Below, one piece after another: positions 44,601 to 56,765 of a stretch of 64,000 nt of DNA. Under the pieces are notes generated by a model, which saw nothing but the letters and a program-made list of their open reading frames with translations, had not been told where the DNA came from and did not search any database. The DNA lies in the NCBI GenBank assembly GCA_045863335.1, contig BTVY01000006.1:1-64000 (forward strand). Reading direction: 5' to 3'. Every line of letters starts with the position of its first letter. Position 1 is the first letter of the stretch. The stretch is from Candidatus Hydrogenedentota bacterium. Lineage in GTDB: Bacteria > Hydrogenedentota > Hydrogenedentia > Hydrogenedentales > SLHB01. The position numbers and the translations under genes are program-made.

Positions 44601-46901
44601 TGCGTGTTCGAGCTGTTCACGTTTCTGAGTCAGCTCACGCGCCAAGTGCTCCCGTAGACCTGGCTCAATCGCTGTGTTGCGAAGCTGGTCCGTAATCCTT
44701 TCGATGTCGCTCTCAAGATACTGAGAAGTTTCCGTACTAGTTAGTTCGCCAACGCATCGCGCAATGGCGGCTCGAACTACTTGAATTTCGTGCTGTTGCG
44801 TAAGCAGCGGACCAAGCCTGGCCGCTGAAGCGCGAGAATCGCTGAAGCAGAGCAGTCGTCGTCCTCCGCCAGGCTTCCAGTTGCTGGAAGGTCCAGGAAT
44901 TGGGGGAAGACCATGAAGCACGGTTTCCGCGGCTACCGAAAGAGCAAAAGGCCGTCCACCGACCAACGCCCTGCAAGTATGCCGCCATTCTGGTTCCAAG
45001 TCTTCGGCTTCCGGTATGGTCCACTCAGACCCGCAAGTAGGGCACAACTGGGGAGAATGGACGTCCTCTCGGTATGCTTTCCACAAACTGACGCCTTGTG
45101 ATCCATGTCCACGGACTTCTCCAAGATGCGGATCGACAACGACTTCCTCGAGCTCTGAACGTCCGCGGTTCGCCAGCAAGTAATACGTTCGATGGGTGGG
45201 TGAGTCGGCAAAATAGCCGGGCTGCAGAGTCGACGTATCCTGATTCTCATGTGCGGCAAGTGCCCACTCGCCGCAATTATCGCACCGGTGAATAGGCAGC
45301 AATAGATGCTCACAGTAGCGGCATACATCCGCGTATGGCTGAAGACATCCAATCGAATCAATGCGGGTACGTTGAGGTCCTGGGCAGCTAGGATTTAGGC
45401 AGACCGACAGTCCTTCTGGCGCTCGGACAAGTAAGTGGAGACGATGAGGCACCAATGGTAGGTCAGATGCCTGCTCGCGTGCAGCCGCGGAAAGACGAAG
45501 TAAAGCGATGGTGGCTCTTCGTTCCTCTATGCCGTCGTTTCCCTCAAAAAGCCTACGCGCCAGTTCTCCGAGGCTTAGAACATTGGCGTCTTCCTCGGAC
45601 AGTGTCTCGGCTAGCTTCCGAATAAGCGGGGACCGTTGAAGTGTTGCATGAAGGAAGCGTGCTGGACAGGCACTTTGAGACTCTAAGGCGGTTTCGATTA
45701 CAGACCGGGCTACTAGAAGAGATACGAGCCCTTTAAGCCTTTCAACGGAGTTTTCGTCATTCTCAACGAGTTGTTCATCCGAAGCAAGTGTCTCAAAATC
45801 GATGCCCGAGGATCGGGCCAATTGCGGAACGCCATTCGAAGTATCTGGCGGAGCTTCAGGCTCCTCGAAAAGTTGTCTGGCGTAGCGACCCTGAATTACG
45901 TGCGTTTGGCTATGGCTATCGGAGAGAATCTCAGACGCAAACTTCCTCAATTCGCCAACAGAACCGCCAAGTGTCGCCGACGTGGCGATTTGCAGGACAT
46001 CTTCGACTGAAACGCCACACCGCTCGCGCACCCTTCTCAACAGCATTGCGATCTCGGCAGCCAGGGAGCCGCTGTAGAGGTGGGCTTCGTCTAAGATGAC
46101 GCACCGAAGATCGGGCCCGAAGAATCGGCTGTCTTGTGGTCTACACAGCATGTACTCAAGCATTGAGTAGTTAGTTATCAGGATGTCAGGAACCCGACTA
46201 AACGGCGGCGAAGCTATGGGGCGGCCATCAGTGGTCTCATACCCGCGGGCCTGCTGTCGTGTCCGAAGTCGACAAGGCTCCCACTCGGGTTCTCCGCGTT
46301 TGTTGGCTAATCGAACGTCTTCGGGAGTTTCACTCGTGAAGTGAAATACGGTAACGTCGCTCTGGCCTCGTAACCACTGGTAGAGGCGATCGACTTGGTC
46401 GGCGACCAAAGCGTTCATTGGATAGAGAATAAGACAGCGTACGCCGCCTTCGGATTGGCGTTCTGGGGCGCTCCATAAGTCGCCAAGGATAGGAAGAAGA
46501 AAGGCTTCCGTCTTTCCTAAACCCGTTCCTGCAGTAATGACTACAGAAGGGCGAGAAACACTGTCCCTGGACGATAGACGGAGCGCTTCAGCTTGATGAC
46601 TGTAGAGCAACCGGTTGATGGGGAACACGTCGTGGGCTTCGATATGCTCGCATAACGACTTTGGGAAGTATCCGTCTTGAGTTAGGGATTCAAGCGTATC
46701 GGAGCCGACTTCCCCTGAGAAAGCCCCTTCAACCCAGAGTTCGCTTACCAATCCTCCCGATTCTCCGGGGCCGGACCAGACAGATTCAGCGGCATCTGCA
46801 ATTTGGGCATCTCGAAAATGGTTCTCCGCTACGGCAAGTTCGACTAAGCGCGTTCGTACGTCTTTGACCAGCTTTAGCGCATCGACATGACTCAAACCCA
46901 A
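41697..46901 (-). CDS. Large SF2 DEAH-box helicase with C-terminal DUF1998 (DruE-like)
   Basis: Q-motif YSHQ, TAGTGLGKTEAF, LYPMNALVADQ, TNYSMLEYML, DEAH, TSATL, FSDSR, EHSAQL, STTTMELGIDIG, QRAGRAGRR, several CxxC clusters, C-terminal YD..PGGAG...C..AC.DC. Confidence 0.88.
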   Translation of the reverse strand: MGLSHVDALKLVKDVRTRLVELAVAENHFRDAQIADAAESVWSGPGESGGLVSELWVEGAFSGEVGSDTLESLTQDGYFPKSLCEHIEAHDVFPINRLLYSHQAEALRLSSRDSVSRPSVVITAGTGLGKTEAFLLPILGDLWSAPERQSEGGVRCLILYPMNALVADQVDRLYQWLRGQSDVTVFHFTSETPEDVRLANKRGEPEWEPCRLRTRQQARGYETTDGRPIASPPFSRVPDILITNYSMLEYMLCRPQDSRFFGPDLRCVILDEAHLYSGSLAAEIAMLLRRVRERCGVSVEDVLQIATSATLGGSVGELRKFASEILSDSHSQTHVIQGRYARQLFEEPEAPPDTSNGVPQLARSSGIDFETLASDEQLVENDENSVERLKGLVSLLVARSVIETALESQSACPARFLHATLQRSPLIRKLAETLSEEDANVLSLGELARRLFEGNDGIEERRATIALLRLSAAAREQASDLPLVPHRLHLLVRAPEGLSVCLNPSCPGPQRTRIDSIGCLQPYADVCRYCEHLLLPIHRCDNCGEWALAAHENQDTSTLQPGYFADSPTHRTYYLLANRGRSELEEVVVDPHLGEVRGHGSQGVSLWKAYREDVHSPQLCPTCGSEWTIPEAEDLEPEWRHTCRALVGGRPFALSVAAETVLHGLPPIPGPSSNWKPGGGRRLLCFSDSRASAARLGPLLTQQHEIQVVRAAIARCVGELTSTETSQYLESDIERITDQLRNTAIEPGLREHLARELTQKREQLEHARAGTPFVDFASLVARRDELAELLDRSQAESHQARSYAQSDWNRNRDAVRAQAEALVAKELQRPLKRQPSAESVGLVEVVYPGISNLQLPPRLEEELPSSARQALGAVWPSMLTLLLDTVRMDGCLYWSQENPSRKWMEQYLLLGRWLTRNHGGWGARAFVGATGGQLRRIFMKNVMLAAGCSEADANQLSERGLVAAFDQLFGVLQQTGFSWLKREEHHQTGPNEEDRAVQILADRLSVRSPASLFWCEATGTVWTSSALGWAPIAGCQGGLRPVDVEFLDNDPRWGRARREYKNSTILSMGLWAEEHSAQLSPQETKRLQELFKAGIRNVLSSTTTMELGIDIGGLNGVLLSNVPPGPANHKQRAGRAGRRSDGSALVVTFARDSEYDREVFLRFGDFLKRPLRKPTVFLDRNQVIRRHIHAVLLAEYLRARQPDRTGAMHAFGRMGQFCGVNAPSYWKRRTDPRPSWPHDGVDVALAFAEFLNQLKDDDRGLQFRFQRLAEGTGLSTSMEPRNWREFLDNARIAFGAAISEWRQDVNYLRDAWSEIPATPTSQIGRQMAKANSIRYMVRTLTDITVIEWLADHRFLPRYGFPINLQSLSVRRPVPDGSRESAADERYKLERSSMLALREYVPESQVLVGGRVATSRGLRKHWTDSNLDQALGLQYFALRCPEDHVYLRQSPDAECPRCGSQPVAREHLVFPRFGYTTAGWEDQPLGTNLERVGEQSVCPTAFAERGDGEAIQDFAGMQGVRITYREDAELLVRNAGRNHCGFAVCTRCGFSMSEIEVGQGRMRLPADFERHASIFSANPRSFCWDRTDPNPPVLRNRVLAAKELTDMILLEIPGALFGVYDAVYSLGRALAMAGSRLLELDERELGVELIPLQNTSLGIVVYDVTPGGAGHCRELLSAGNEWVALAREILYVNADHDLLCRKACLDCILDFSGQYAASHLNRRAALALLDRIQVA

Positions 46902-49849
46902 ATCCCCTCCTCTCCGCTTAGCGACAACCAGTAGCAGCAGATGCTCGTGGAAATATACTTCCTACCGGACGGAGATTCCCCAACTTTCGAGATGTCATCA
47001 CAATCTTCATCATTGGGCTTCCAAACTTGGTCGCGCATCGATACTGTCCAGGCGCCCACCAAGTCCGACAGATAGTCAGGTTCCAACTGTGCAAATTGTG
47101 CAGCCGCTTCCTCTAGGTATCCGAGTCGTCGTCTGATTTGTTGATTGCTACTGGTTTTGGCAAGCCCCAATCCTGTGCATACGAATGCACGCAGCAAATC
47201 AAGGGTCTTGGTCTTATCGCGTTTCAAAAAGTGCTCGAGACACTTCCACACCAATATGGGGGACACTTTAGAAAGAGTGTCCAATATTCCTATACATCGT
47301 TCCGGGTTGTGCATACTTCCGTCCCAGTTTGTCAGCGCACCAATCGCATCTCTAGCGTGCGCGGCAGGAAAAGTAGTCCAGAGATAGGTTCTGACAACGA
47401 GGTCGATCCCCGAGATATGCTCGTGCTCGTGAAGGCCGGCCGGAAGACTTGAGTTGACAAGCCACGCGCGAAGAAATCGGCACGGAGAGTGGATAACTTT
47501 TGGGGCAAGCATCTTTGCCAGAGTGGGGTGCAACACTGGGGCTCTCAACCATTTCAACATTGCGTGATCAGTCTCTGACAGATCCTGTCGACCCTCTATA
47601 TACTTTCCGATTCCCTCAAGATCCCACCACGCTCCTAGCCAATACCCTTTCCATGTCAATGCAACCGCCATCGGATAATCCGGAAGATCAAGCTTCCATA
47701 CGTGGTTTGTCGAGCTCTTCAGAATGCGGTCAGTTGGTAGCTTCTTTGGGCGCCCGTTGGCCCCGCCCTCAGCTGTCCAATACCACAAACTGTAGCCTTC
47801 ATCGCCCGCCTCGCCGTACTCCTTCGCGATTGATAAGTGCAGGCTAGCAGGACTACCCAACATGGAAGGCTGAAAGTTTGCGACGCACCCCCGGTCGACG
47901 GACCGCACGTCCAATTGATAGATTCTCTCATCCGAGTGCACACTTAATGACTCTCCGAATCCTGAAAGGTCAGAAAGCACCATGCGCCCGTGTCTTGCTC
48001 TTCCGGCGCGATGATGACCTTCGTGCACGTAGGGATTGGGTGTTGCGTCAGGGACCCACACTCGTAGAAGCGAAGTGCCCTCAGAGCGGTTTACCTCTGC
48101 TCCGGGCTTCAGAGGATGCAGTTTCAGATGGCTAGCGTCTTGCCGGTCGTCGGCGCGCAAGATCGCTGCGGCGGCTAGTTTGAATTCCAGCCTCGGCTTG
48201 AGAGCTCTTGAGCTTCCATTGCACATAGTCCTCACTCGAACTGCGCGTTGTCGGCTTGCTAACTCCGGCGTCAAGCTGATTTCGTTGGGCGTTTCCCACA
48301 TCCCGTCCCCAACTGCATGTAGGTCATACGCCTTGTTATGAATGAGGAGACGCACAGAATCCAGATCGGTAGATAGGCCAGAGACAAGTAGTCGCGTCCG
48401 GTCGTTCAAATTAAATGTGGAATTTCCCGGAGTGGAGAGAACCGGTGTAGCCGTCGTCGGCGCATCTTCAACTTGGCGCAAAGGCTGCCAGAGGATGAAT
48501 TCCTCGTAAATTACTGCAACACTATTTTCCAGTGGCGCTGGTAAGCGTATGGCCTTCCGCGCCACCCCTGCTCGCTCGAAAACTTCCAGCGGTTGGCAGC
48601 CTTCAATAACGCACTTTTTGTCACAGATGAGAGCGTAGTGGCGAGCCGGCTCTAACCTCTCCTCTCCGGCGCGCACCAGTGTCTTCTTGTCGAGATCAAA
48701 TACCAAAACTTCACTTGTCAGTCCCGAGTCTGTAAGGTCCCACTCTACGATGTGTTCACCCCTTTTCGACGAAAGCGCCAGCACACTTGGAGACAAGTTA
48801 GGCGTTCTCCCAGCTGACTGAGGTTCCGCGTAGATTTCTTCGTCACCCGTATAGCCGCCGTTCGATTGGCGGAGCCAACGAGCGACTTTTTTCGTGTCCA
48901 CGTACACATCGATCTCTGGAACATCTGTTTGCTCCTGGATGCGGGCTTTGTCGAGGCGAATCTGAATTCTCGGCTCCCCGCCAAGTGGCCAATGAAGCTC
49001 GATATCTGCAATTGGCGTAAACGCTTCGTCGGTATCGCACTCTCCTCCAGTGGTCGATTCGGCATCGCCATGCCAGTCACCGATGCCAAGCGTCTCAATG
49101 CGAGACTTGGCCTCAACCAATAGGGAGTCTATCCAGGACGGTTGGACCCAAGGACTCGATCGCAATACTTGTCGCGCTTCTTCATCTCCGATTAGGCCGC
49201 GCCTATACTGGATGAAGGCTCGCCACATGGACTTGAATGATTCTGAGGCGAGTTCTGGCAGGTCCATTTCGCCATTCAGGTACCGAACCGTGTGGGGTCT
49301 ACCAAGATTCACTAACCATTCTGCTAATCGATTTCTTGCGCCGTGGTACGTAAAGCCGTATTGCAGTTTGATAGTGATAAACCATTGCTGGGTGCCTTCG
49401 ACATCCATAACATGTCGAAGGTTCAATGCTCGAACCGCATCTTCAATCAAGATCTTGGTGGTGGAGGACGGTTGCCCGTTCGAGAGAAACAGTTCTCTCC
49501 TAAGCGCGTGCGAATCGGGTAAAATGCGGCGAACAGCAGGCCATACGGAATCTTCGTTACTCTCACGCCGACATGCTTCGGCACCGGCGCAGATTAGCAG
49601 TCCGCCGAACATCTGTCGGTAGCTTGCGTACGATTCTCCGGTAAACCGCGAAAAGACAACGGACTTTATCCAGTTCGCGGTACTGTCCGGAGTCAGATGC
49701 AGGAACCACTTGTGCAACCAATCAACCTCATGGTCCTCAAGCTGTAGTTCAGCCATAGACCATGGGCGGTTATACTTCATTCCCGCGTCATGCAATTGCC
49801 GAAAGACTTGCTCCAACGTTGCCAATTGGGGACAAAGATCTTGCCACAC
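46892..49849 (-). CDS. Large hypothetical protein (985 aa), DruH-like position and size
   Basis: Long ORF overlapping the helicase start by 10 nt with GAGGAGG upstream; no motif recognised with certainty. Confidence 0.75.
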   Translation of the reverse strand: MWQDLCPQLATLEQVFRQLHDAGMKYNRPWSMAELQLEDHEVDWLHKWFLHLTPDSTANWIKSVVFSRFTGESYASYRQMFGGLLICAGAEACRRESNEDSVWPAVRRILPDSHALRRELFLSNGQPSSTTKILIEDAVRALNLRHVMDVEGTQQWFITIKLQYGFTYHGARNRLAEWLVNLGRPHTVRYLNGEMDLPELASESFKSMWRAFIQYRRGLIGDEEARQVLRSSPWVQPSWIDSLLVEAKSRIETLGIGDWHGDAESTTGGECDTDEAFTPIADIELHWPLGGEPRIQIRLDKARIQEQTDVPEIDVYVDTKKVARWLRQSNGGYTGDEEIYAEPQSAGRTPNLSPSVLALSSKRGEHIVEWDLTDSGLTSEVLVFDLDKKTLVRAGEERLEPARHYALICDKKCVIEGCQPLEVFERAGVARKAIRLPAPLENSVAVIYEEFILWQPLRQVEDAPTTATPVLSTPGNSTFNLNDRTRLLVSGLSTDLDSVRLLIHNKAYDLHAVGDGMWETPNEISLTPELASRQRAVRVRTMCNGSSRALKPRLEFKLAAAAILRADDRQDASHLKLHPLKPGAEVNRSEGTSLLRVWVPDATPNPYVHEGHHRAGRARHGRMVLSDLSGFGESLSVHSDERIYQLDVRSVDRGCVANFQPSMLGSPASLHLSIAKEYGEAGDEGYSLWYWTAEGGANGRPKKLPTDRILKSSTNHVWKLDLPDYPMAVALTWKGYWLGAWWDLEGIGKYIEGRQDLSETDHAMLKWLRAPVLHPTLAKMLAPKVIHSPCRFLRAWLVNSSLPAGLHEHEHISGIDLVVRTYLWTTFPAAHARDAIGALTNWDGSMHNPERCIGILDTLSKVSPILVWKCLEHFLKRDKTKTLDLLRAFVCTGLGLAKTSSNQQIRRRLGYLEEAAAQFAQLEPDYLSDLVGAWTVSMRDQVWKPNDEDCDDISKVGESPSGRKYISTSICCYWLSLSGEEGIWV

Positions 49850-50181: not shown

Positions 50182-52278
50182 TCACAACACCCCCTCCGCC
50201 TCCTTCGCGCCTCCCTTGTCTACGGTGAAGACCGCGAACTCCCCATCCTCGCCTTGGACGGCCACTCGCGTCTCCTCGCCGACGCGTAGGGAAAACCCCG
50301 GCAGCGACACGGTGGCGCCGGTGTCTTGGATTACGGCGTCGGTGGTTTTGGCGGGGGTGTCGTTTTCGAGGAGGTGGTAGGCGGTGATGAACCAGGCGTC
50401 GCGGCCTTGTTGGCGGCGGAGGAGCATGGGGAGGCGTTCGGGCATGTTGGGTCCGAAGCCTTCGCCGTAGAAGGCGGCGGACGCGTCGAGGAAGCGCAGG
50501 GCGATGCGCGAGTTGCCGCCGGTGTTTAGCGTGGCGGTGTCGAGCCGTTCGGGGTAGCGTTTCGTGTTCTTGAGCAGCGTGTAGGGGCCTTTGTCGCCGA
50601 TGGCGTCGACGGCTTCGCCTTCGGGCAGGCCGGTCAACGTGCCGCGGAAATGGAGGGGCAGATCGAAGGTGGCGTCCTCTTCGGAGGTGCAGTGGACCAC
50701 GTCGAGCAGGACGTTCCCGGCGAGGCAGAGGGCGCGGTCGATCGTGACGCCCTTGTAGGCGCCGTCGCAGGTGGCGCGGACGACGGCGAAATCCTCGGTG
50801 ACGCCGAAGGCCTGGAGTTTGCACGGCACTTTCTTCTGCGAGGTTTCGTTCACGACTACCGTGTTGTGGGCGAGGGTCTGGGTGAACCAGCCGCGGTGCA
50901 AGGGGTTGCCGTAGGGCAGGCGGCCGGGATCGACGAGGCGTTCGTCGCCGTGGGCGTAGAGGATGAGGCCGAGCTTCGCGGGATGGACGTGGCCCGAGGT
51001 GCCGGGACCGTAGTCGAAGAAGACGGCCGTCTGCCCCGACGCGTCGCGGAGCACGGCGAGCCCGTCGGAGGGATCGTTGGTCGAGCGCAGGCGCAGACGC
51101 GTAGGCCGATCCTCCGGCAGGGCATCGACGCCCCAAAGCAGGGCCTGTTCCGAATTGCGCGGACCGAGCAGCGGCAGGTAGGCCGGGTCCTCGAAGCGGC
51201 GGTAGGCGACCTCGTACTGATCGCGCTGTCCCGTGATGGACGAACGCCCGCTGTCGTTCAGCGCAGGATACGTGAGGTCGGGGAAAAGCTGGCGCAGGGG
51301 TCCGTCAAACATCTTCTTCACCGGCGGCAGCGCGTAGAGGTCCATGCCCGCGCGTGCGGCCGCTTCCAACAGGTAGAGGTGCGCCAACATCGCGTACCAG
51401 TGATAACTCGGCGCGGCTTCATACCACATGCCGCTGTCCGTCACGCTTTTCTCCATCTGGAAGACAAAGCCGCTCTTGCCGTTCACGGCCCAATCGGCCA
51501 ATTCCGCGTCACCCATGACGAAGGCCGCCGACGCGACGCCGGCGTTGTGCCAGGACTGCCAGTTCGAGATGCCGGCGTCGTTTCGGCGAATCGTGTCGAT
51601 CAGGGGCCGCAAGAAATGCGTCTCGATTCTCGCGTGATCCTCCGGCGTAAAGCAGGGCGCGTCGTGGACGAAATCGTATCCCCGTGCGATCCGGCACAAT
51701 CCGACCGACTCATCCAGCGTCTGCGCGAAGAGACGTCCGGCCGACTTCGCTTGCTTGCCGTCCTTGTCATGAAGCGGCAGCGATTCGTAGAAGGACGCAT
51801 ATTCGAGCAGGATCGCCTTCGCCCGCTCTGCGTATTCCGGTTGCGGATTCAGCACATACGCGATTCCGAGCGCGTCGAGTTGACTGAAATTGCGGTTGTG
51901 CTGGTAGGTGAATACCACGTCGTCGTACGGCCAGCCTGTGTAGAGCGTGCCGCAGGTCTTGCACACGTGTTCCGTCGGCGACTTCGCTTCCAGACCGCCG
52001 CCGTCCTTCTCGCAAGTGTACCAATGCGACCACTGCCCGCCCTGGTGCGGAATGTCGATGGGCTGCGCGAGCAAGGCGTCCGCCTGGGCGACGATTCGCC
52101 CCGCGACTTCCCTGGCCCAATCCAGATTCGCGGCGCGGTCGCGAACCTGCGCCACCTCCTCCTGGGTAAGAAACGCGCGGGGATGCGGGCCCGCCGCCAC
52201 CTGGGCCGGCACGGGCTCAAAGGGCGCTTGCGCGTGAAGCGTGGACAGGATGACTGCGAGCGATGCGACGAGGTGCAT
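50182..52278 (-). CDS. Secreted alginate-lyase/heparinase II-III domain polysaccharide lyase (PL15/17-like)
   Basis: Signal peptide, HPR, SNWQSWHN, GMWYE..SYHWY, P..NDS, GHVHP.KL, HNTVVVNE. Start 52278 (ATG) or 52290 (GTG). Confidence 0.8.
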   Translation of the reverse strand: MHLVASLAVILSTLHAQAPFEPVPAQVAAGPHPRAFLTQEEVAQVRDRAANLDWAREVAGRIVAQADALLAQPIDIPHQGGQWSHWYTCEKDGGGLEAKSPTEHVCKTCGTLYTGWPYDDVVFTYQHNRNFSQLDALGIAYVLNPQPEYAERAKAILLEYASFYESLPLHDKDGKQAKSAGRLFAQTLDESVGLCRIARGYDFVHDAPCFTPEDHARIETHFLRPLIDTIRRNDAGISNWQSWHNAGVASAAFVMGDAELADWAVNGKSGFVFQMEKSVTDSGMWYEAAPSYHWYAMLAHLYLLEAAARAGMDLYALPPVKKMFDGPLRQLFPDLTYPALNDSGRSSITGQRDQYEVAYRRFEDPAYLPLLGPRNSEQALLWGVDALPEDRPTRLRLRSTNDPSDGLAVLRDASGQTAVFFDYGPGTSGHVHPAKLGLILYAHGDERLVDPGRLPYGNPLHRGWFTQTLAHNTVVVNETSQKKVPCKLQAFGVTEDFAVVRATCDGAYKGVTIDRALCLAGNVLLDVVHCTSEEDATFDLPLHFRGTLTGLPEGEAVDAIGDKGPYTLLKNTKRYPERLDTATLNTGGNSRIALRFLDASAAFYGEGFGPNMPERLPMLLRRQQGRDAWFITAYHLLENDTPAKTTDAVIQDTGATVSLPGFSLRVGEETRVAVQGEDGEFAVFTVDKGGAKEAEGVL

Positions 52279-52381
52279 GAGTAACTCCACGATAACGGTT
52301 GGTTCACGATCTCTTCGTGAAAGGTTCGCAGGGCGGGCCCTGCGGATTCAAGGAAAGACGGGAAATTGGATCCTTGTCGCG

Positions 52382-52413: not shown

Positions 52414-53355
52414 TCAGGGCGAAGTCAGCAGATACTGCGCGAGGGGACCGGCCACGTCTTGACCGGTTTTCTCTTCGAAGACGGCGAACATGGGCGAGGG
52501 ATTGCATTCGAGCACCACAAAGCCGGACGCAGTGCGGATGAGGTCGACGCCGGAGAATCGCATGGAGCAGGCACGGGCGGCGGCCACGGCGGCGCGCCGT
52601 TCGTGTGCCGTCAGCCGGGTCGAAAGGACCGCATCTTCGCCGCGACGGTAGTCGAGTTCCCGGGAATGGATCTCGCCCGCGGCGACGACTTTGTTGCCGA
52701 CCACGTAGACGCGAACGGAGGTTCCTTCGACGAGTTCCTGAAACAACACCGGCGCATAGGCGAGGGCGGCGAGGCGTTCGTCATCGAGATCGCTGGCTTC
52801 GACTTCCTGGACTGTCGCGCCGCCTGCCAGTGGTTTGTAGACGGCGCGTTTCGCGCGGCGAACGAAGGCGCGCACGGCCTTGGGATCGTTGCTGGCCAGA
52901 AACCGGGGCACGGGCAACCCCGCGTCGCGGAGCAGCCGCAACTGGTACGGCTTGCGTCCGTGTTGCGCGTTCACGTCCGGCGGATTGACAAGGCGCGCGC
53001 CGCGGGCTTCGAGCGCCACGACGGCGGACACCATGAGGGCGCCGCATTCGTCCAGCTGGGCCAGCAGACCGTGGGGGCGTTGTTTCAATTCCTTCGCGAG
53101 TTCGGGCACACGGTAGCTGGTCCCGAGCGAGCGGAGATAAACGGACCGCACCTCCGCAGGCAGAGTCTTGCCGTTGACGCGTATCCGGTCCTCGTCGACC
53201 GACACTCGAGCCGACTCAGGGAACGCGACGCTGTCGCACAGAAACGACCGGCCACCCCGGTGGGCGATCTCCGCTCGAACCCGGCGAATCTGCGGGTCGC
53301 CCTTGGCGCCAAAAAGGGCGACCCATGCGCTATGGGTACCCCGCGCCGCGCTCAG
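52414..53355 (-). CDS. RimK-like ATP-grasp ligase, graspetide synthetase (PsnB-like)
   Basis: VNP, KPYQL, PVPRFLASND, VYKPLAGG, LFQELVEG, VRVYVVG, DYR, FSGVDL, LECNPSPMF. The frame stays open 150 nt upstream of the track start (WVALFGAKGDPQIRRV...) up to a CTG overlapping the precursor stop. Confidence 0.85.
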   Translation of the reverse strand: MSAARGTHSAWVALFGAKGDPQIRRVRAEIAHRGGRSFLCDSVAFPESARVSVDEDRIRVNGKTLPAEVRSVYLRSLGTSYRVPELAKELKQRPHGLLAQLDECGALMVSAVVALEARGARLVNPPDVNAQHGRKPYQLRLLRDAGLPVPRFLASNDPKAVRAFVRRAKRAVYKPLAGGATVQEVEASDLDDERLAALAYAPVLFQELVEGTSVRVYVVGNKVVAAGEIHSRELDYRRGEDAVLSTRLTAHERRAAVAAARACSMRFSGVDLIRTASGFVVLECNPSPMFAVFEEKTGQDVAGPLAQYLLTSP

Positions 53356-53513
53356 GCTTCCTCACCCAGCGCCAGGGTGGTCACGCCACCGCCTTTCCAC
53401 CAGGCTTCTTCGCCGACCGCCAGGGTCGTCGCTTTGCCTTTGGCCGCGGGCGCGGGAAGCTCGAGTTCACGGATGAACAGTCTTGGTTTGGTAACGTTTT
53501 TGGTCCGCTTCAC
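53352..53513 (-). CDS. Group 2 (plesiocin-type) graspetide precursor peptide, 53 aa
   Basis: Translated by hand: MKRTKNVTKPRLFIRELELPAPAAKGKATTLAVGEEAWWKGGGVTTLALGEEA*. GTG start 8 nt after GGGAG (alternative ATG 53528). LFIxxL leader plus 2 x TTxxxxEE. Confidence 0.88.
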   Translation of the reverse strand: MKRTKNVTKPRLFIRELELPAPAAKGKATTLAVGEEAWWKGGGVTTLALGEEA

Positions 53514-53740
53514 GACATCTACTCCCATCGTGTTCCATATGCGATCTCAATTCGGGGATAGCTCCTCCAAACTTACCGGCGAAAGGGCTGGGCATTACAG
53601 AATCCGTCCGCCGACTATGCCATGCAAGTGACGGAATGCACGCGTGTTATTTGTTACGATGCACCCTTGGCGAAATGAGTCGTAACGTCTCAAGTCGGAA
53701 CAACGTCTCTCATTTCCACAGTTGTCGGAATTTGTCTCTC

Positions 53741-54577
53741 ATGAAATTGCGCTTCCAGAAACGGTATTTCCTCGCAGGTTGTCTTTCCGCGCTTCTCGGA
53801 ATCGCGGCATTGGCCGCGATCGCCTTTGCCATGGCCATGGGCGACGATGAAGGCATTCCGCGGGCGACAATTGCCGACACTCAGGGTCGTAGTATCAGCT
53901 ACCTACATGCGGGCGAGTCCGCCTCACAACGAATCATCTACGTGCACGGTTCGCCGGGGAATGCGCGCGCGTGGCTGGACTACCTCAAAAACCCAATTTC
54001 CGGATTTCAGTCCATCGCGCTTGATCGACCGGGGTTCGGTCAGACCCTGCCCGCGGGTCCCGCGCCAACACTGCAATCGCAAGCCGCGGCGATCGAGCCC
54101 TTCCTTGTCGAACGTGACGGCAAATGGCCGATCCTGGTGGGGCAATCGTTTGGCGGGACTGTCGTGTGCCAGGCTGCCGCAGACTTTCCGGACAGGGTCG
54201 GGGGGCTTGTGGTCCTTTCGGGCGCGTTAGACCCCGCGCTGGAGCGAAAGCGCTGGTATCAGCAGGTCGGAGAGTTCTGGTTTGTGCCAAACCTGCTGCC
54301 GCGCCCGCTTCGGAATTCCAATCGCGAGTTGATTCCGCTGAAAGGCGAGTTGGAGGAGTTGGCCCCGCGGCTTGCGACGATAACGAGCCCCGCAATCATC
54401 TTGCACGGCACGGAGGACGATCTGGTACCCGTCTCGAACGTGGACTTTCTCCAGAGCCATCTACCCTCGGAATCCATTCGGGAGATCCGGTTGTTCGAGG
54501 GGCGGAATCATCTGATCCCGTGGTCGGAATCAGAGGCCATCCGCGAGGCTATCCAGACGGTGGCGGTTGGTTCATGA
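53741..54577 (+). CDS. Membrane-anchored alpha/beta-hydrolase
   Basis: N-terminal TM, VHGSPG, DRPGFG, nucleophile GQSFGG, HGTEDDLVP, NHLIPW. Confidence 0.85.
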   Translation: MKLRFQKRYFLAGCLSALLGIAALAAIAFAMAMGDDEGIPRATIADTQGRSISYLHAGESASQRIIYVHGSPGNARAWLDYLKNPISGFQSIALDRPGFGQTLPAGPAPTLQSQAAAIEPFLVERDGKWPILVGQSFGGTVVCQAAADFPDRVGGLVVLSGALDPALERKRWYQQVGEFWFVPNLLPRPLRNSNRELIPLKGELEELAPRLATITSPAIILHGTEDDLVPVSNVDFLQSHLPSESIREIRLFEGRNHLIPWSESEAIREAIQTVAVGS

Positions 54578-54671: not shown

Positions 54672-55529
54672 CTATTCCAGACTTGCAAGACCATCGAGGA
54701 ACCATCGCTGGGCCGGAAATTGGCCCTCCCTCAGGAATACTACATGGCCGTCCAGGTAGAGCACGTTGATGCCGCCAGGGATGTGGTGCTCCAGGGAGCG
54801 GTCGAACATGATGGGAATCTGGTCGGCCCGAACGGGCAACCCCATGCCCGAGCTGTCCTTCAGCCGCACAAAGTGGTCCGTGCCGGCCGTACCGGCTCCC
54901 GCTGCTGCCACGAGATCGCCTTCGAATCCGCCGCCGCTTTGCTGTTGCTGACGGTAGGCGTCAATAAATGCGCGCGCTTCGGTCTCGTTCGTGACGGCAT
55001 AGCCGAGGTAGAAGTAGCTCTCGTCACCAATGGTCTCCGGTGTTTCCATCACCTGCGTCACATCGGAATCGCTGGGGCAATTGAAGATACTCGGGGTGGC
55101 CAGATACTCCGGGTAGATTGCGCTCGCCGAGGGCGCAAACTCGCCCGGCACATCCGACAGCGGCGGAAGCGCGTGGTCGTGCTCATTCGCCCACATCATG
55201 TAGACGAGGCCCATCTGCTTGAGGTTGTTCTGGCATGACGCCCTGCGCGCCGCCTCGCGCGCCCGCGCGAGAGCCGGGAGCAGGATTGCCGCCAGAATAC
55301 CAACGACGACAAATAACCCGACCACACCCACGGCGCCGAGAATTGCGGCGATCAGGCACCCGTTCTGATTGCCGGAAGTTTTTCTCGGCCTGCCGGGCAA
55401 GGGTGCGCCCACCCGAGGCGGCGGCTGATAGCGCTGGTCTCCGGGGGGAATCGGAGGCTTCGGTGGATTGCTATCCGCCAGAAGGGGAATCGTTCGCTGG
55501 TATCCGGCTTCGGGTGTGCTGTCGGTCAT
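54672..55529 (-). CDS. DUF1559 / H-X9-DG protein lacking a prepilin cleavage site
   Basis: [49 protein letters not shown]; Pro-rich N-terminus plus TM. Start ATG 55529. Confidence 0.85.
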
Positions 55530-55614
55530 GCTGCTTCTCCCTCCATCCGCGACATGCCCCCACGTGTGCTCGTGCACCATGATACCAAATCACCGGGCCG
55601 CAGCGAAGAGGGAA

Positions 55615-55678: not shown

Positions 55679-56575
55679 TTAGAATCCGTCGAAGGGTCGG
55701 TTGAAGCGCCCGAAGGTGCGTGCGCTGTCCTCCGTCATGGGGAACTTCTCACTGGGATACCGTAAGAAATTCACGTGACCATCCAGATACAGCACGTTTC
55801 CACCTCCCGGTACGTGGGCGAAGTCCTTCGTAGCCGTCGAGATGTGGTCCCACACGATGGGAATTTCGCTGGATGCCTGGGCGCTGCCCGCGGGATTGTT
55901 GATGTCGGTGATCAGGAAACGTTCCACGCCTTGACGGAGCCGCAGGATAGTATCGCCACCGCCGACCTGAGTACCGGCGTACGTTGACGAGACTTCGAAA
56001 TCCTCGTCGCTGGCTTCACCATTTGTATCGAAATTCTCTTGGGCCAATTCACCCCAAGGAGTATTCATATACTCCGCTTCCGAGAACCGGCCGCCCACAT
56101 CGGAACCCACCGTGCCGACAAGGGGTCCGAGGATGTTGACGTCCTCGGTGATGAGCCAGCCGGTGTAGTCATAGGGCTCCTTGGTGAACTCGCAGGGCTG
56201 CACGATGCCGTCGTCATTTCCTTTCTCCGCGTCGTAGCGCGCAACTGGGTTCGCTTGGGCGCCCCAGGAAGGACACCAGACGACGTTCACGTCCGTAAGG
56301 TACTCCGGATACACGGCAGGCCCGCTGAAGATCATCTCGGGGCTGAGGGCTCCGCTGCAGGTGAAGGTCTGGCGCGGCGGCAGTTTCTGGCCTTTGCTCT
56401 CATTGGAGTACATGGTGAGCACAAGCCCGATCTGTTTCAGGTTGTTCTGGCAGCTCGCGCGACGCGCGGCTTCGCGTGCACGGGCCAGAGCCGGCAACAA
56501 AATCGCCGCCAGAATACCGATGATGGCAATGACGACGAGCAATTCAATGAGGGTAAACCCGAGAGAGCGTTTCAT
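55679..56575 (-). CDS. Prepilin-type N-terminal cleavage/methylation DUF1559 / H-X9-DG protein
   Basis: MKRSLG|[42 protein letters not shown]; [15 protein letters not shown]. Confidence 0.92.
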
Positions 56576-56665
56576 GGCGCACAATCCTTTCAATTCAGTC
56601 AAGACGAAGACAACCCCACGTCGAGCAAGCGCACATAACGCATGTTTTGTATGCTGAACAAAAGG

Positions 56666-56765
56666 ATTATGCAATAAGGTTATGCTCTAAGTCAATATTA
56701 AAATTTTCCCTGCATGAGCATGCGGTCTGTCAACATGACCACTTAAATCAAGTTGTTACGTAACA
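56666..56765 (-). promoter_or_regulatory. Sigma70 promoter with upstream IHF-like site and palindrome
   Basis: Minus strand TTGACT-18-CATAAT (56695-56666); AATCAAGTTGTTA (56746-56758) matches WATCAANNNNTTR; perfect palindrome TGTTACGTAACA (56754-56765). Confidence 0.5.

What the first reader, a model, noticed from the sequence alone, without database searches (positions are those of the whole stretch)
52414..53528. Hidden plesiocin-type graspetide (omega-ester RiPP) gene cluster
Seen: an unannotated 53-aa ORF (53513..53352, minus) reads MKRTKNVTKPR-LFIREL-ELPAPAA-KGKATTLAVGEE-AWW-KGGGVTTLALGEE-A, has a good RBS, and abuts a RimK-like ATP-grasp gene. Known: group 2 graspetides (plesiocin, PsnA2/PsnB from Plesiocystis) have an LFIEDL-type leader recognition motif and repeated TTxxxxEE cores. 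An ATP-grasp ligase closes these into Thr-Glu ester bicycles, and plesiocin inhibits serine proteases. Inference: this is a minimal two-gene cluster making a new two-core graspetide with an unusual Trp-Trp linker, probably in a lineage with few or no characterised RiPPs. No transporter or leader peptidase is adjacent.
Basis: partly seen in the sequence, partly recalled or inferred. Interest (0 to 1): 0.88.

Follow-up and report, generated by a model that had tools for sequence, protein, structure and literature searches.

The report
Plesiocin-type graspetide pair in Hydrogenedentota
A 53-residue peptide gene and the ATP-grasp enzyme gene beside it form a genuine two-gene kit for an ester-cross-linked peptide of the known plesiocin type, found here in an uncultured bacterial phylum, which makes it a solid but not surprising find.

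Summary
A 53-aa ORF (53513..53352, minus strand, GTG start, GGGAG 8 nt upstream) carries an LFIRELE leader and two TTLAxGEE cores.

**Ligase.** The adjacent ATP-grasp gene matches PsnB, the plesiocin macrocyclase, far better than any other solved structure (E 5.7e-51; RimK 4.5e-13). It keeps PsnB's core-binding Arg72 and Arg213, the D-aromatic-R loop and the leader-Phe pocket.

**Conservation.** The peptide+ligase pair recurs in 27 of 31 related loci, all in Candidatus Hydrogenedentota genomes. No other neighbouring gene is conserved, so this is a minimal two-gene module. The ligases form one clade (SH-aLRT 99). They occur in 35 of 135 genomes of the phylum.

- The ligase is about 313 aa, not the 263 aa of the listed ORF and the public gene call. 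Its conserved N-terminus has no in-frame ATG/GTG/TTG. It most likely starts at a CTG overlapping the precursor's TGA (CTGA). Eight of 31 loci, from four lineages, lack a usable canonical start.
- The group-2a hallmark Arg101 is Asp here.
- The core octapeptide is already catalogued from other phyla.

Ester formation and protease inhibition are inferred, not shown. This is a new member of a known kind.

The parts
53352..53513 (-). Precursor peptide gene, 53 aa plus TGA stop, with a GTG start
   Evidence: The start position agrees with 26 orthologues. Five of the 7 publicly called close relatives are 53 aa long.
53522..53526 (-). Shine-Dalgarno-like GGGAG, 8 nt upstream of the precursor GTG
   Evidence: Read directly. 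Function is inferred.
53460..53480 (-). Leader recognition motif LFIRELE (residues 12-18)
   Evidence: L12, I14, L17 and E18 are invariant in 26 precursors. It corresponds to LFIEDL of PsnA2. The complex model puts leader residues 10-14, 16-17 and 20-23 on the ligase.
53406..53429 (-). Core 1, TTLAVGEE (residues 29-36)
   Evidence: T29, T30, E35 and E36 are invariant and G34 is at least 90% conserved. It is one of only two genome-wide matches to the pattern.
53397..53402 (-). Trp-Trp of the inter-core linker AWWKGGGV (residues 38-39)
   Evidence: WW occurs in the five genus-level relatives. Other genera have K[FW]xW or GW at the same place.
53358..53381 (-). Core 2, TTLALGEE (residues 45-52)
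   Evidence: 21 of 27 precursors have two cores and 6 have one.
53352..53355 (-). CTGA overlap: the proposed CTG start of the ligase (53355..53353) overlaps the precursor's TGA stop (53354..53352)
   Evidence: CTG is the only near-cognate codon in frame upstream of the conserved N-terminus. The same geometry is seen in all five genus members and in L033. L032 has ATAG. That this codon is the start is an inference.
52414..53355 (-). PsnB-like ATP-grasp macrocyclase gene, 313 aa if started at the CTG. The conserved protein begins at 53322. The listed and publicly called form is 52414..53205 (263 aa).

Best explanation
This is a two-gene biosynthetic module for a plesiocin-type (group 2) graspetide in a Candidatus Hydrogenedentota bacterium.

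**Proposed mechanism.** The 53-aa precursor is bound through its leader. The Phe13 of LFIRELE sits in a hydrophobic pocket of the ATP-grasp ligase. The ligase then phosphorylates the side-chain carboxylates of the paired Glu residues with ATP. The paired Thr hydroxyls attack, giving two nested Thr-Glu omega-ester rings per core. By analogy with PsnA2 the rings would be T30-E35 inside T29-E36, and T46-E51 inside T45-E52. That is four water losses in all, 5690.113 to 5618.071 Da monoisotopic with Met1 kept.

**Likely product.** The product is probably a hairpin-shaped serine-protease inhibitor, like the characterised group 2 members.

**Ligase translation.** The ligase is about 313 aa. It is most likely translated from a CTG that overlaps the precursor's stop codon. 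This would couple its weak translation to that of the precursor.

**Shown here:**
- both genes exist;
- the pair is conserved as a unit;
- the ligase is closest to PsnB and keeps PsnB's functional residues;
- the leader-ligase interface can be modelled.

**Inferred:** ester formation, ring topology, protease inhibition, the CTG start, and the fate of the leader.
For: **Ligase identity**
- The best solved relative is 7drm_A, E 5.7e-51 over query 3-299 / chain 30-329. I count about 113 identities in 297 aligned positions on the identity line. The next hit is 1.4e-17, RimK is 4.5e-13 and LysX is 8.4e-10.
- With an offset of +20, all 13 residues that the PsnB preprint names fall on the right letters of that chain. 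So the chain is PsnB.
- Equivalents in the window ligase, numbered from Val at 53322: Arg72=R64, Arg213=R204, DFR233-235=D224-Y225-R226.
- Leader pocket: Tyr171=Y162, Arg192=R183, Ile193=L184, Leu196=L187, Val201=V192, Phe203=F194.
- R64, R204, D224, Y225 and R226 are invariant in 14 orthologues. R64 is Arg in all 70 relatives aligned. R204 and D224 are kept in 69 of 70, the exception being the frameshifted L043.
- The best NCBIfam model is TIGR04187 'ATP-grasp ribosomal peptide maturase', E 6.8e-31. It aligns over profile positions 15-311 of 312 once the N-terminal extension is included.

**Precursor**
- The leader and cores are conserved in 26 aligned precursors. Invariant positions are L12, I14, L17, E18, P20, T29, T30, E35 and E36.
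- A precursor lies adjacent to the ligase in 27 of 31 loci.
- The core pattern is unique in the genome.
- The only ligase-like paralogue in the genome is a RimK-type gene on another contig.

**Unit of conservation.** Only these two genes are shared across loci.

**Phylogeny.** The 30 Hydrogenedentota-type ligases form one clade (SH-aLRT 99). It is separate from a clade of Actinomycetota, Acidobacteriota, Bacillota, Planctomycetota and others whose neighbours also carry TT[LM]AxGEE repeats.

**Complex model**
- Score 0.72, best of 3 controls 0.00. The mark was reached by 116 of 157 solved complexes and 2 of 215 mismatched pairs.
- The runs agree in at least 35% of contacts. The partner's pLDDT is 45.
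- The interface is leader residues 10-14, 16-17 and 20-23 against ligase residues 162-164, 168-170, 172, 178, 183-187, 189-190 and 192.
- A like complex (PsnB with its leader) is solved, so this pass may be from memory. It shows likeness, not binding.

**Chemistry of the family, from passages read**
- PsnB makes two Thr-Glu lactones per TTxxxxEE core.
- RcpA/RcpB, also group 2, lose 4-5 waters in E. coli, and the product inhibits human neutrophil elastase at IC50 0.31 uM.

**CTG start**
- There is no in-frame ATG/GTG/TTG in the open frame upstream of the conserved N-terminus in the window, L017, L018, L019, L043 and L033. In L032 and L041 the only in-frame canonical codons lie 78 and 28 codons upstream, inside the precursor gene.
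- CTG overlaps the TGA stop in the first six. ATA overlaps TAG in L032. In L041 a CTG lies 1 nt after the TAG.
- Close relatives with canonical starts begin 5-11 codons before the same beta-strand.
Against: - No experiment has been done. Esterification, ring pattern and bioactivity all rest on analogy.
- The ligase has no canonical start codon, so it could be poorly made or not made at all.
- The Arg101 equivalent is Asp91 in the window and Arg in only 2 of 31 clade members. The PsnB preprint says this residue binds the outer-ring Glu and is conserved in group 2a enzymes. The same text calls it largely dispensable for activity.
- PsnB Arg181, which pairs with leader Asp18, is Gln172 here.
- All NCBIfam scores are far below the curated cut-offs (107.6 against 350).
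- No leader peptidase or exporter is nearby, and the precursor has no double-Gly site before core 1. Release and export are therefore unexplained.
- Four of 31 ligase loci have no recognisable adjacent precursor (L023 has only 238 nt of upstream sequence; L028, L034, L042).
- The complex-model pass may reflect memory of the solved PsnB-leader complex.
Confidence: 0.88

Rival explanations
1. The module is a decaying or silent cluster. The ligase lost its start codon and is no longer made, so the peptide stays unmodified.
For: No in-frame ATG/GTG/TTG lies upstream of the conserved N-terminus. In one genus member (G004/L043) the ligase match is split into two pieces, which suggests a frameshift.
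Against: The same start-less arrangement is kept in five genomes of the genus whose ligases have diverged to 68% identity. The frame is intact, the N-terminus is conserved and all catalytic residues are present. Similar arrangements arose in three more lineages (L033, L032, L041). The L043 split is in a single MAG and may be a sequencing error.
Confidence: 0.08
2. The ligase really starts at the GTG at 53205, as in the public gene call (263 aa), and works without the first ~50 residues.
For: It is the first canonical start in the frame and the form held in the public protein collection (P0009).
Against: The 48 codons upstream of that GTG are conserved in all 13 orthologues aligned. D9, Q11 and R14 are invariant. 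This stretch aligns to residues of the solved PsnB chain and to the N-terminal part of the RiPP-maturase profiles. Orthologues with ATG starts begin 2-8 codons before that stretch.
Confidence: 0.03
3. The enzyme is an ordinary RimK/LysX-type amino-acid ligase, and the small ORF is a chance reading frame.
For: Pfam names only the RimK-like ATP-grasp domain. Public names of relatives are 'glutathione synthase/RimK-type ligase-like' or 'ATP-grasp domain-containing protein'.
Against: PsnB outranks RimK by 38 orders of magnitude. rimK_fam scores 87 against a cut-off of 143.4. The genome has a separate RimK-type paralogue, which sits on a 6.5-unit branch in the tree. The small ORF is conserved at the protein level in 27 of 31 loci.
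Confidence: 0.01
4. Precursor and ligase are joined into one protein by a -1 ribosomal frameshift at the end of the precursor gene, since the ligase frame is -1 relative to the precursor frame.
For: The two frames abut with no gap and no canonical start. The PsnB preprint reports that engineered leader-fused PsnB is functional.
Against: There is no slippery heptamer at GAA GCC TGA (read). The ligase frame has its own TGA 3 codons upstream of the CTG, so the shift would have to occur in a 9-nt window. No conserved RNA structure follows: z-scores run from -1.69 to +0.65 at five junctions. 23 of 31 loci have separate genes with canonical starts.
Confidence: 0.02

Closest known systems
Plesiocin, PsnA2/PsnB (group 2 graspetide; PDB 7DRM-7DRP)
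   Same: - A single ATP-grasp ligase, encoded just downstream of the precursor.
- About 38% identity over the full length.
- Arg72, Arg213, the D-aromatic-R loop and the leader-Phe pocket are conserved.
- The leader is LFI-x-[ED]-L.
- The cores are TTxxxGEE.
- In the window, 11 residues separate leader motif and first core.
   Different: - There are two cores, where plesiocin has four according to the preprint.
- The Arg101 equivalent is Asp and the Arg181 equivalent is Gln.
- The loop has DYR where PsnB has DFR.
- The leader has a basic N-terminus, MKRTKxxTK.
- The ligase lacks a canonical start codon.
- The host phylum is different and uncultured.
RcpA/RcpB of Rheinheimera (group 2 graspetide, characterised 2024, PMC11626197)
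   Same: It has a TTxxxxEE core and a single ligase. Co-expression in E. coli gives 4-5 dehydrations, and the product inhibits elastase (passages). It is the best experimental template for testing this module.
   Different: - Rcp has extra non-canonical motifs (TTxxxED, VTxxxxED).
- It has a GG cleavage site and an associated protease domain (RcpC).
- It sits in a multi-BGC locus.

The window's module has none of these.
TT[LM]AxGEE-repeat precursors next to related ligases in Actinomycetota, Acidobacteriota, Paenibacillus, Planctomycetota, Melainabacteria, Chloroflexota and Thermoplasmatota
   Same: They have the same core octapeptide and an [LF]FIx[DE]L-type leader. Their ligases are 30-48% identical to the window's. 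The strings TTLAVGEE and TTLAIGEE occur 33 and 9 times in the supplementary precursor lists of Makarova et al. 2022.
   Different: - Their ligases form the sister clade and keep Arg at the PsnB-Arg101 position in 36 of 39 rows.
- Many have more repeats and acidic linkers (GEEGDD...).
- The Hydrogenedentota leader strings were not found in those supplements.
Microviridin MdnA/MdnB/MdnC (group 1 graspetide)
   Same: It is an ATP-grasp RiPP maturase system with leader-Phe recognition. Arg72, Arg213 and the D(F/W)R loop are conserved across groups.
   Different: Similarity is far weaker: E 1e-8 to 3e-6 in PDB, with MvdC/MvdD models at 62 and 57 bits. It uses two ligases, a TxRxPSDxDE core and a lactam ring.
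RimK / LysX alpha-L-glutamate ligases
   Same: They share the ATP-grasp fold and the Pfam RimK domain.
   Different: They score much lower. They add free amino acids to a protein C-terminus and have no adjacent TTxxxxEE peptide. The genome has its own RimK-type paralogue elsewhere.

Membership tests
Group 2 (plesiocin-type) graspetide cluster | The ATP-grasp ligase is most similar to PsnB rather than to other ATP-grasp families | tested here: met
   PsnB (7drm_A) at E 5.7e-51 over the full length. The next hit is 1.4e-17, RimK is 4.5e-13 and the MdnB/C type is 1e-8 or weaker.
Group 2 (plesiocin-type) graspetide cluster | The precursor gene is adjacent to the ligase and conserved together with it | tested here: met
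   The precursor is on the same strand, directly upstream, and the two genes overlap by CTGA. The pair is conserved in 27 of 31 loci. No other neighbour is conserved.
Group 2 (plesiocin-type) graspetide cluster | Core motif TTxxxxEE, usually repeated | tested here: met
   The cores are TTLAVGEE and TTLALGEE. T29, T30, E35 and E36 are invariant in 26 precursors.
Group 2 (plesiocin-type) graspetide cluster | Leader with an LFIEDL-type motif whose Phe binds a hydrophobic pocket of the ligase | tested here: met
   The window has LFIRELE, and L12, I14, L17 and E18 are invariant. Of the seven leader-contact residues named in the preprint, five are identical (Y162, R183, L187, V192, F194), one is conservative (Ile193 = L184) and one differs (Arg181 = Q172). 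The modelled interface is centred on F13 (the pass may be from memory of the solved PsnB complex).
Group 2 (plesiocin-type) graspetide cluster | Graspetide-wide catalytic and core-binding residues: Arg72, Arg213 and the D(F/W)R loop | tested here: met
   R64 and R204 are present. The loop reads D224-Y225-R226, with Tyr instead of Phe/Trp, so the aromatic character is kept. All are invariant in 14 orthologues and kept in 69-70 of the 70 relatives aligned, L043 being the exception at R204 and D224.
Group 2a subgroup (as named in the PsnB preprint) | Arg101, which binds the outer-ring Glu, is conserved | tested here: not met
   It is Asp91 in the window. It is acidic in 25 of 31 Hydrogenedentota rows and Arg in 2 of 31. 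Arg is found in 36 of 39 rows of the other lineages. The definition of 2a in Lee et al. 2020 could not be read.
Group 2 (plesiocin-type) graspetide cluster | The enzyme forms two Thr-Glu omega-esters per core (water losses, methanolysis) | not testable with these tools
   This needs co-expression and mass spectrometry. The expected shift is 5690.113 to 5618.071 Da.
Group 2 (plesiocin-type) graspetide cluster | The product inhibits serine proteases | not testable with these tools
   This is shown for RcpA products. For plesiocin I only recall it. It has not been tested for this peptide.
RimK / LysX family | Score above the family's curated cut-off | tested here: not met
   rimK_fam scores 87.0 against a cut-off of 143.4. 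LysX_arch scores 54.1 against 275.6. Context with S6 or LysW was not searched for; the neighbours within 3 kb are an alpha/beta hydrolase and a heparinase II/III-like protein.
NCBIfam TIGR04187 (GRASP_SAV_5884 ATP-grasp ribosomal peptide maturase) | Score above the curated cut-off | tested here: not met
   It is the best-scoring model but reaches only 107.6 bits against 350. The resemblance is at superfamily level only, which explains the generic public names.

The most novel reading that the evidence does not exclude
The Hydrogenedentota module may be a distinct sub-lineage of plesiocin-type graspetides that entered the phylum once and has since been lost repeatedly. It would have two unusual traits.

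1. **Non-canonical initiation.** The ligase is repeatedly translated by termination-reinitiation from a near-cognate codon (CTG or ATA) that overlaps or abuts the precursor's stop codon. This has arisen in four separate lineages. It would hard-wire a low enzyme-to-substrate ratio without a canonical start codon.
2. **Altered outer-ring recognition.** Arg101 is replaced by an acidic residue. This implies a different way of handling the second ring-forming Glu.
Probability: 0.35. Interest if true: 0.5.

Novelty: new member of a known kind. Interest (0 to 1): 0.4.

Why it matters
- **Reach of the family.** It extends a characterised RiPP family to Candidatus Hydrogenedentota. To my recollection (not checked here) this phylum has no cultured members, and my literature searches found no graspetide paper that mentions it.
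- **A tractable target.** The substrate/enzyme pair is very small (53 aa plus about 313 aa) and easy to test for graspetide chemistry and protease-inhibitor discovery.
- **An annotation trap.** Gene callers truncate the ligase or over-extend it into the precursor gene, because it has no canonical start. They also mostly miss the precursor. Genome-mining pipelines that need a full-length ATP-grasp protein, or an annotated precursor, could therefore skip this clade.
- **A possible model for initiation.** If the CTG/ATA starts at the stop codon are real, the pair is a natural case of non-canonical, coupled initiation that sets enzyme:substrate stoichiometry.

Tried and rejected
1. **Attenuator hairpin between the genes.** A terminator-like stem lies at 53337..53321 (4 sites found against 2.2 expected). 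Folding five orthologous junctions gave z-scores of -1.69, -0.75, +0.65, -0.13 and +0.47. There is no conserved structure, so I dropped the idea.

2. **Leader-ligase charge covariation.** I compared leader position 15 with ligase position 172, the PsnB Arg181 equivalent. Acidic leaders go with Arg in 12 of 14 loci, and basic leaders with Arg in 1 of 7 (L043 was left out because its ligase is frameshifted). The independent-pairs test found only 1 pair on supported branches, so the pattern is suggestive but untestable here.

3. **Accessory genes.** I looked for a peptidase, transporter or tailoring enzyme.
   - An all-against-all comparison of ORFs of at least 90 aa in 31 loci found only the ligase, its antisense shadows and the precursor frame shared widely.
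   - The alpha/beta hydrolase at 53636..54577 is shared only with two loci of the same genus.
   - A convergent ferredoxin is shared by 6 loci but is not in the window.

4. **Planctomycetota guess.** My first guess of the host, from the DUF1559/prepilin genes, was wrong. Titles of related records point to Hydrogenedentota.

5. **Papers not held.** Ramesh et al. 2021 and Lee et al. 2020, the group definitions and the ~4000-BGC catalogue, are not held. I could not check whether Hydrogenedentota members are already listed there, nor how groups 2a and 2b are defined.

7. **A tree including PsnB itself** was not built. The PDB chain is not available as a stored sequence, and I did not type it.
Full report
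**1. The observation**

On the minus strand, the ORF listing gives an ORF at 53528..53352 (58 aa from an ATG). GGGAG sits 8 nt upstream of that GTG.

The GTG is the better start. In 26 orthologous precursors a start codon lies 10-16 codons before the L[FY]I motif, at 10-13 codons in 25 of them. All five members of the window's genus have GTG there, and the upstream ATG is missing in three of them.

The next gene on the same strand has a RimK-like ATP-grasp domain (Pfam PF08443, E 2.1e-16).

The core motif is not a chance event. The back-translated pattern for TTLAxGEE matches the 6.75-Mb genome exactly twice, both times in this ORF, with 0 matches for the reversed control.

**2. The ligase is longer than listed**

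The listed ORF (52414..53205, 263 aa, GTG) aligned only to positions 65-311 of the 312-position RiPP-maturase profile TIGR04187. The frame stays open upstream to 53361.

The extra stretch, VALFGAKGDPQIRRVRAEIAHRGG..., is conserved in every orthologue. D9, Q11 and R14 are invariant in 14 sequences. It aligns to the solved PsnB chain from residue 30. With it, the profile match runs over positions 15-311 of 312.

Yet the open frame holds no in-frame ATG, GTG or TTG upstream of that stretch. The only near-cognate codon is a CTG at 53355..53353, which overlaps the precursor's TGA stop (53354..53352). It is preceded by GAGGA, formed by the Glu-Glu codons (read).

The same C-TGA geometry is present in all five genomes of the genus, whose ligases have diverged to 68% identity, and in L033. 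L032 has A-TAG, with ATA in the ligase frame. L041 has a CTG 1 nt after the TAG.

In total:
- 8 of 31 ligase genes have no usable canonical start; these fall in four lineages of the tree;
- 9 use GTG or TTG;
- 14 use ATG.

Close relatives with canonical starts begin 5-11 codons before the same beta-strand (P0014, P0064, P0018).

Public gene calls for the start-less forms are either truncated (263, 289, 288, 260 aa) or run back into the precursor gene (327, 328 aa).

I infer, at about 60%, that the ligase is 313 aa and starts at the CTG, probably by reinitiation of ribosomes terminating on the precursor. That reinitiation tolerates weak start codons is recalled knowledge, not tested here.

No conserved RNA structure marks the junction.

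**3. What the ligase is**

Against all PDB sequences the best hit is 7drm_A (E 5.7e-51, query 3-299). The next hits are 1.4e-17, RimK 4.5e-13, LysX 8.4e-10, AMdnB 1.1e-8 and MdnC/B-type 1e-6.

The PsnB preprint (10.1101/2021.03.09.434688; passages read) contains the code 7DRM. It names Arg72, Arg101, Tyr171, Arg181, Arg192, Ile193, Leu196, Val201, Phe203, Arg213 and Asp233-Phe234-Arg235. With an offset of +20, all of these fall on matching letters of the chain in the alignment, so the chain is PsnB.

In the window ligase the equivalents are as follows.

| PsnB residue | Role given in the preprint | Window ligase |
|---|---|---|
| Arg72 | contacts core Gly36 | R64 |
| Arg101 | binds outer-ring Glu38 | D91 |
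| Tyr171 | leader-Phe pocket | Y162 |
| Arg181 | pairs with leader Asp18 | Q172 |
| Arg192 | cation-pi with leader Phe15 | R183 |
| Ile193 | leader-Phe pocket | L184 |
| Leu196 | leader-Phe pocket | L187 |
| Val201 | leader-Phe pocket | V192 |
| Phe203 | leader-Phe pocket | F194 |
| Arg213 | recognises ring-forming Glu | R204 |
| Asp233-Phe234-Arg235 | DFR loop | D224-Y225-R226 |

So the catalytic and core-binding set and the leader-Phe pocket are kept. Arg101 and Arg181 are not.

The preprint says Arg101 is conserved only in 'group 2a' enzymes and is largely dispensable for activity. Across 70 aligned relatives, this position is acidic in 25 of 31 Hydrogenedentota rows (Arg in 2). It is Arg in 36 of 39 rows from other lineages.

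**4. The pair is the conserved unit**

- A whole-genome search of 41 relatives found full-length orthologues (E 1e-78 or better) in 19, counting the window's genome.
- A scan of 135 genomes of the phylum found the ligase in 35 at E 1e-50 or better. In the window's family it was in 25 of 53, not counting the window's genome.
- A scan of one genome per GTDB species returned 74 loci. Of these, 30 are full-length Hydrogenedentota-type, one is a fragment and 43 are more distant.
- A small ORF with a leader and TTxxxxE[ED] lies 9-46 nt upstream of the ligase match in 26 of the 30. The misses are L023 (only 238 nt upstream available), L028, L034 and L042.
- Of the 27 precursors, counting the window's, 21 have two cores and 6 have one.
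- The consensus is MKRTKxxTKxRLFIxELERPA...TTLAVGEE..K.G.VTTLAxGEE.
- The WW of the window is a genus trait. Other genera have K[FW]xW or GW at the same spot.
- Among ORFs of at least 90 aa in the flanks of 31 loci, nothing but the ligase is widely shared.
- The divergent alpha/beta hydrolase (53636..54577) is shared only within the genus. The downstream heparinase II/III-like gene (50182..52290) is shared with no locus.
- Six loci have a convergent ferredoxin instead.

**5. Wider family and lineage**

Titles of the related records say Candidatus Hydrogenedentota for most. Seven say 'Nitrospiraceae' or 'Nitrospirales', but one of these (L017 = G005) is placed in the same genus as the window by the genome tool.

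I built a quick IQ-TREE of 70 ligases, rooted on the genome's own RimK-type paralogue. The frameshifted L043 was left out, as were five partial matches: L062, L080, L087, L089 and L090. The 30 Hydrogenedentota-type rows form one clade (SH-aLRT 99). A second clade (SH-aLRT 80) holds Actinomycetota, Acidobacteriota, Bacillota, Planctomycetota, Melainabacteria, Omnitrophota and a Myxococcota row.

Of the 43 distant loci, 28 also have T[TS]xxxxE[ED] ORFs within 700 nt upstream. Most read TT[LM]AxGEE with [LF]FIx[DE]L leaders.

The strings TTLAVGEE and TTLAIGEE occur 33 and 9 times in the supplementary files of Makarova et al. 2022 that are held as text. 'Hydrogenedent' and the Hydrogenedentota leader strings occur 0 times.

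Text searches found:
- no paper among the 15 listed of 64 that holds 'hydrogenedent' together with a graspetide term;
- 14 papers with 'hydrogenedent' and 'RiPP', none of the 12 listed being about graspetides, judging by title and abstract start.

Ramesh et al. 2021 and Lee et al. 2020 are not held, so prior listing in those catalogues cannot be excluded.

**6. Model of the complex**

One complex-prediction job was run, with ligase alignment A1 and precursor alignment A2.

- The score was 0.72, and the best of 3 controls was 0.00. The mark was reached by 116 of 157 solved complexes and 2 of 215 mismatched pairs.
- The runs agree in at least 35% of contacts. The partner's pLDDT is 45.
- The confident interface is leader residues 10-14, 16-17 and 20-23 against ligase residues 162-164, 168-170, 172, 178, 183-187, 189-190 and 192. 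This overlaps the residues that I mapped independently to the PsnB leader pocket.
- A like complex is solved, so the pass may be from memory. It shows likeness, not that this copy binds.

**7. How it most likely works**

Shown:
- the genes and motifs exist;
- the pair is conserved as a unit;
- the ligase is closest to PsnB and keeps its key residues.

Inferred from the PsnB and Rcp work:
- the ligase binds the leader through Phe13;
- it phosphorylates Glu35 and Glu36, then Glu51 and Glu52, with ATP;
- it closes two nested Thr-Glu esters per core, with four water losses (5690.113 to 5618.071 Da);
- the bicyclic hairpins act as serine-protease inhibitors.

Leader removal and export are unexplained. 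No peptidase or transporter is linked, and there is no double-Gly site before core 1.

**8. Verdict**

It is a new member of a known kind: a plesiocin-type graspetide in an uncultured phylum. It has two modest peculiarities, a ligase with no canonical start codon and an acidic residue at the Arg101 position. Interest is moderate (0.4).

Noticed in passing
window 53352-53355; L032:2963-2968; L041:2988-2994; L033 junction: Eight of 31 ligase genes, in four lineages, have no usable canonical start. In the open frame before the conserved N-terminus there is either none at all, or only one 28-78 codons upstream inside the precursor gene. Each has a near-cognate codon (CTG, or ATA in L032) overlapping or abutting the precursor stop. 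A further 9 of 31 use GTG or TTG. By contrast, 21 of 27 precursor genes start with ATG.
   Followed up: partly
window 52414-53205 compared with 52414-53355: The public protein collection holds the window's ligase only as the 263-aa truncated call (P0009). Calls for close relatives are also truncated (260-289 aa) or over-extended into the precursor gene (327-328 aa). Names given by sources are generic, such as 'ATP-grasp domain-containing', 'hypothetical' and 'glutathione synthase/RimK-type'.
   Followed up: yes
ligase residue 91 (window about 53050-53052) across L017-L088: The position equivalent to PsnB Arg101 is acidic in 25 of 31 Hydrogenedentota ligases. It is Arg in 36 of 39 ligases from other lineages that have the same TTxAxGEE cores.
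   Followed up: partly
leader residue 15 (window 53469-53471) and ligase residue 172: Leaders with Glu or Asp at LFI-x-ELE go with Arg at ligase position 172 in 12 of 14 loci. Leaders with Lys or Arg go with Gln or His in 6 of 7. The complex model puts residue 172 next to leader Ile14. The phylogenetically independent test had no power.
   Followed up: partly
L043 (= G004:C10:373687-374588): In one genus member the ligase match is split into two pieces and spans 902 nt. This suggests a frameshift near residue 200, either a real lesion or an assembly error in that MAG.
   Followed up: no
L017, L025, L031, L033, L035, L042, L044: Seven related records are titled 'Nitrospiraceae' or 'Nitrospirales'. 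Their ligases sit inside the Hydrogenedentota clade, and one of them (L017 = G005) is placed in the window's genus by the genome tool. The submitter labels look wrong.
   Followed up: partly
window 54672-55580 (-) and 55679-56674 (-): Two paralogous DUF1559 (PF07596) proteins lie here, one of them with a prepilin N-methylation motif. I know this type mainly from Planctomycetota, which misled my first guess of the host.
   Followed up: partly
window 46892-49849 (-): This 985-aa ORF has no Pfam family at E 0.01 or better.
   Followed up: no
L017:4107-4487 (-), and L020, L022, L030, L036, L043: A convergent ferredoxin gene (Fer4 + DUF3470) lies just downstream of the ligase in 6 loci. One of them is the 95%-identical relative L017. 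In the window a heparinase II/III-like gene (50182-52290) sits there instead, so the downstream flank has been rearranged recently.
   Followed up: partly
L061, L083 (Thermoplasmatota); L075, L078, L079 (Paenibacillus); L066, L076, L077 (Planctomycetota): TT[LMQY]AxGEE ORFs lie upstream of related ligases in archaea and several bacterial phyla. Some have many repeats, up to about seven visible in L081.
   Followed up: no
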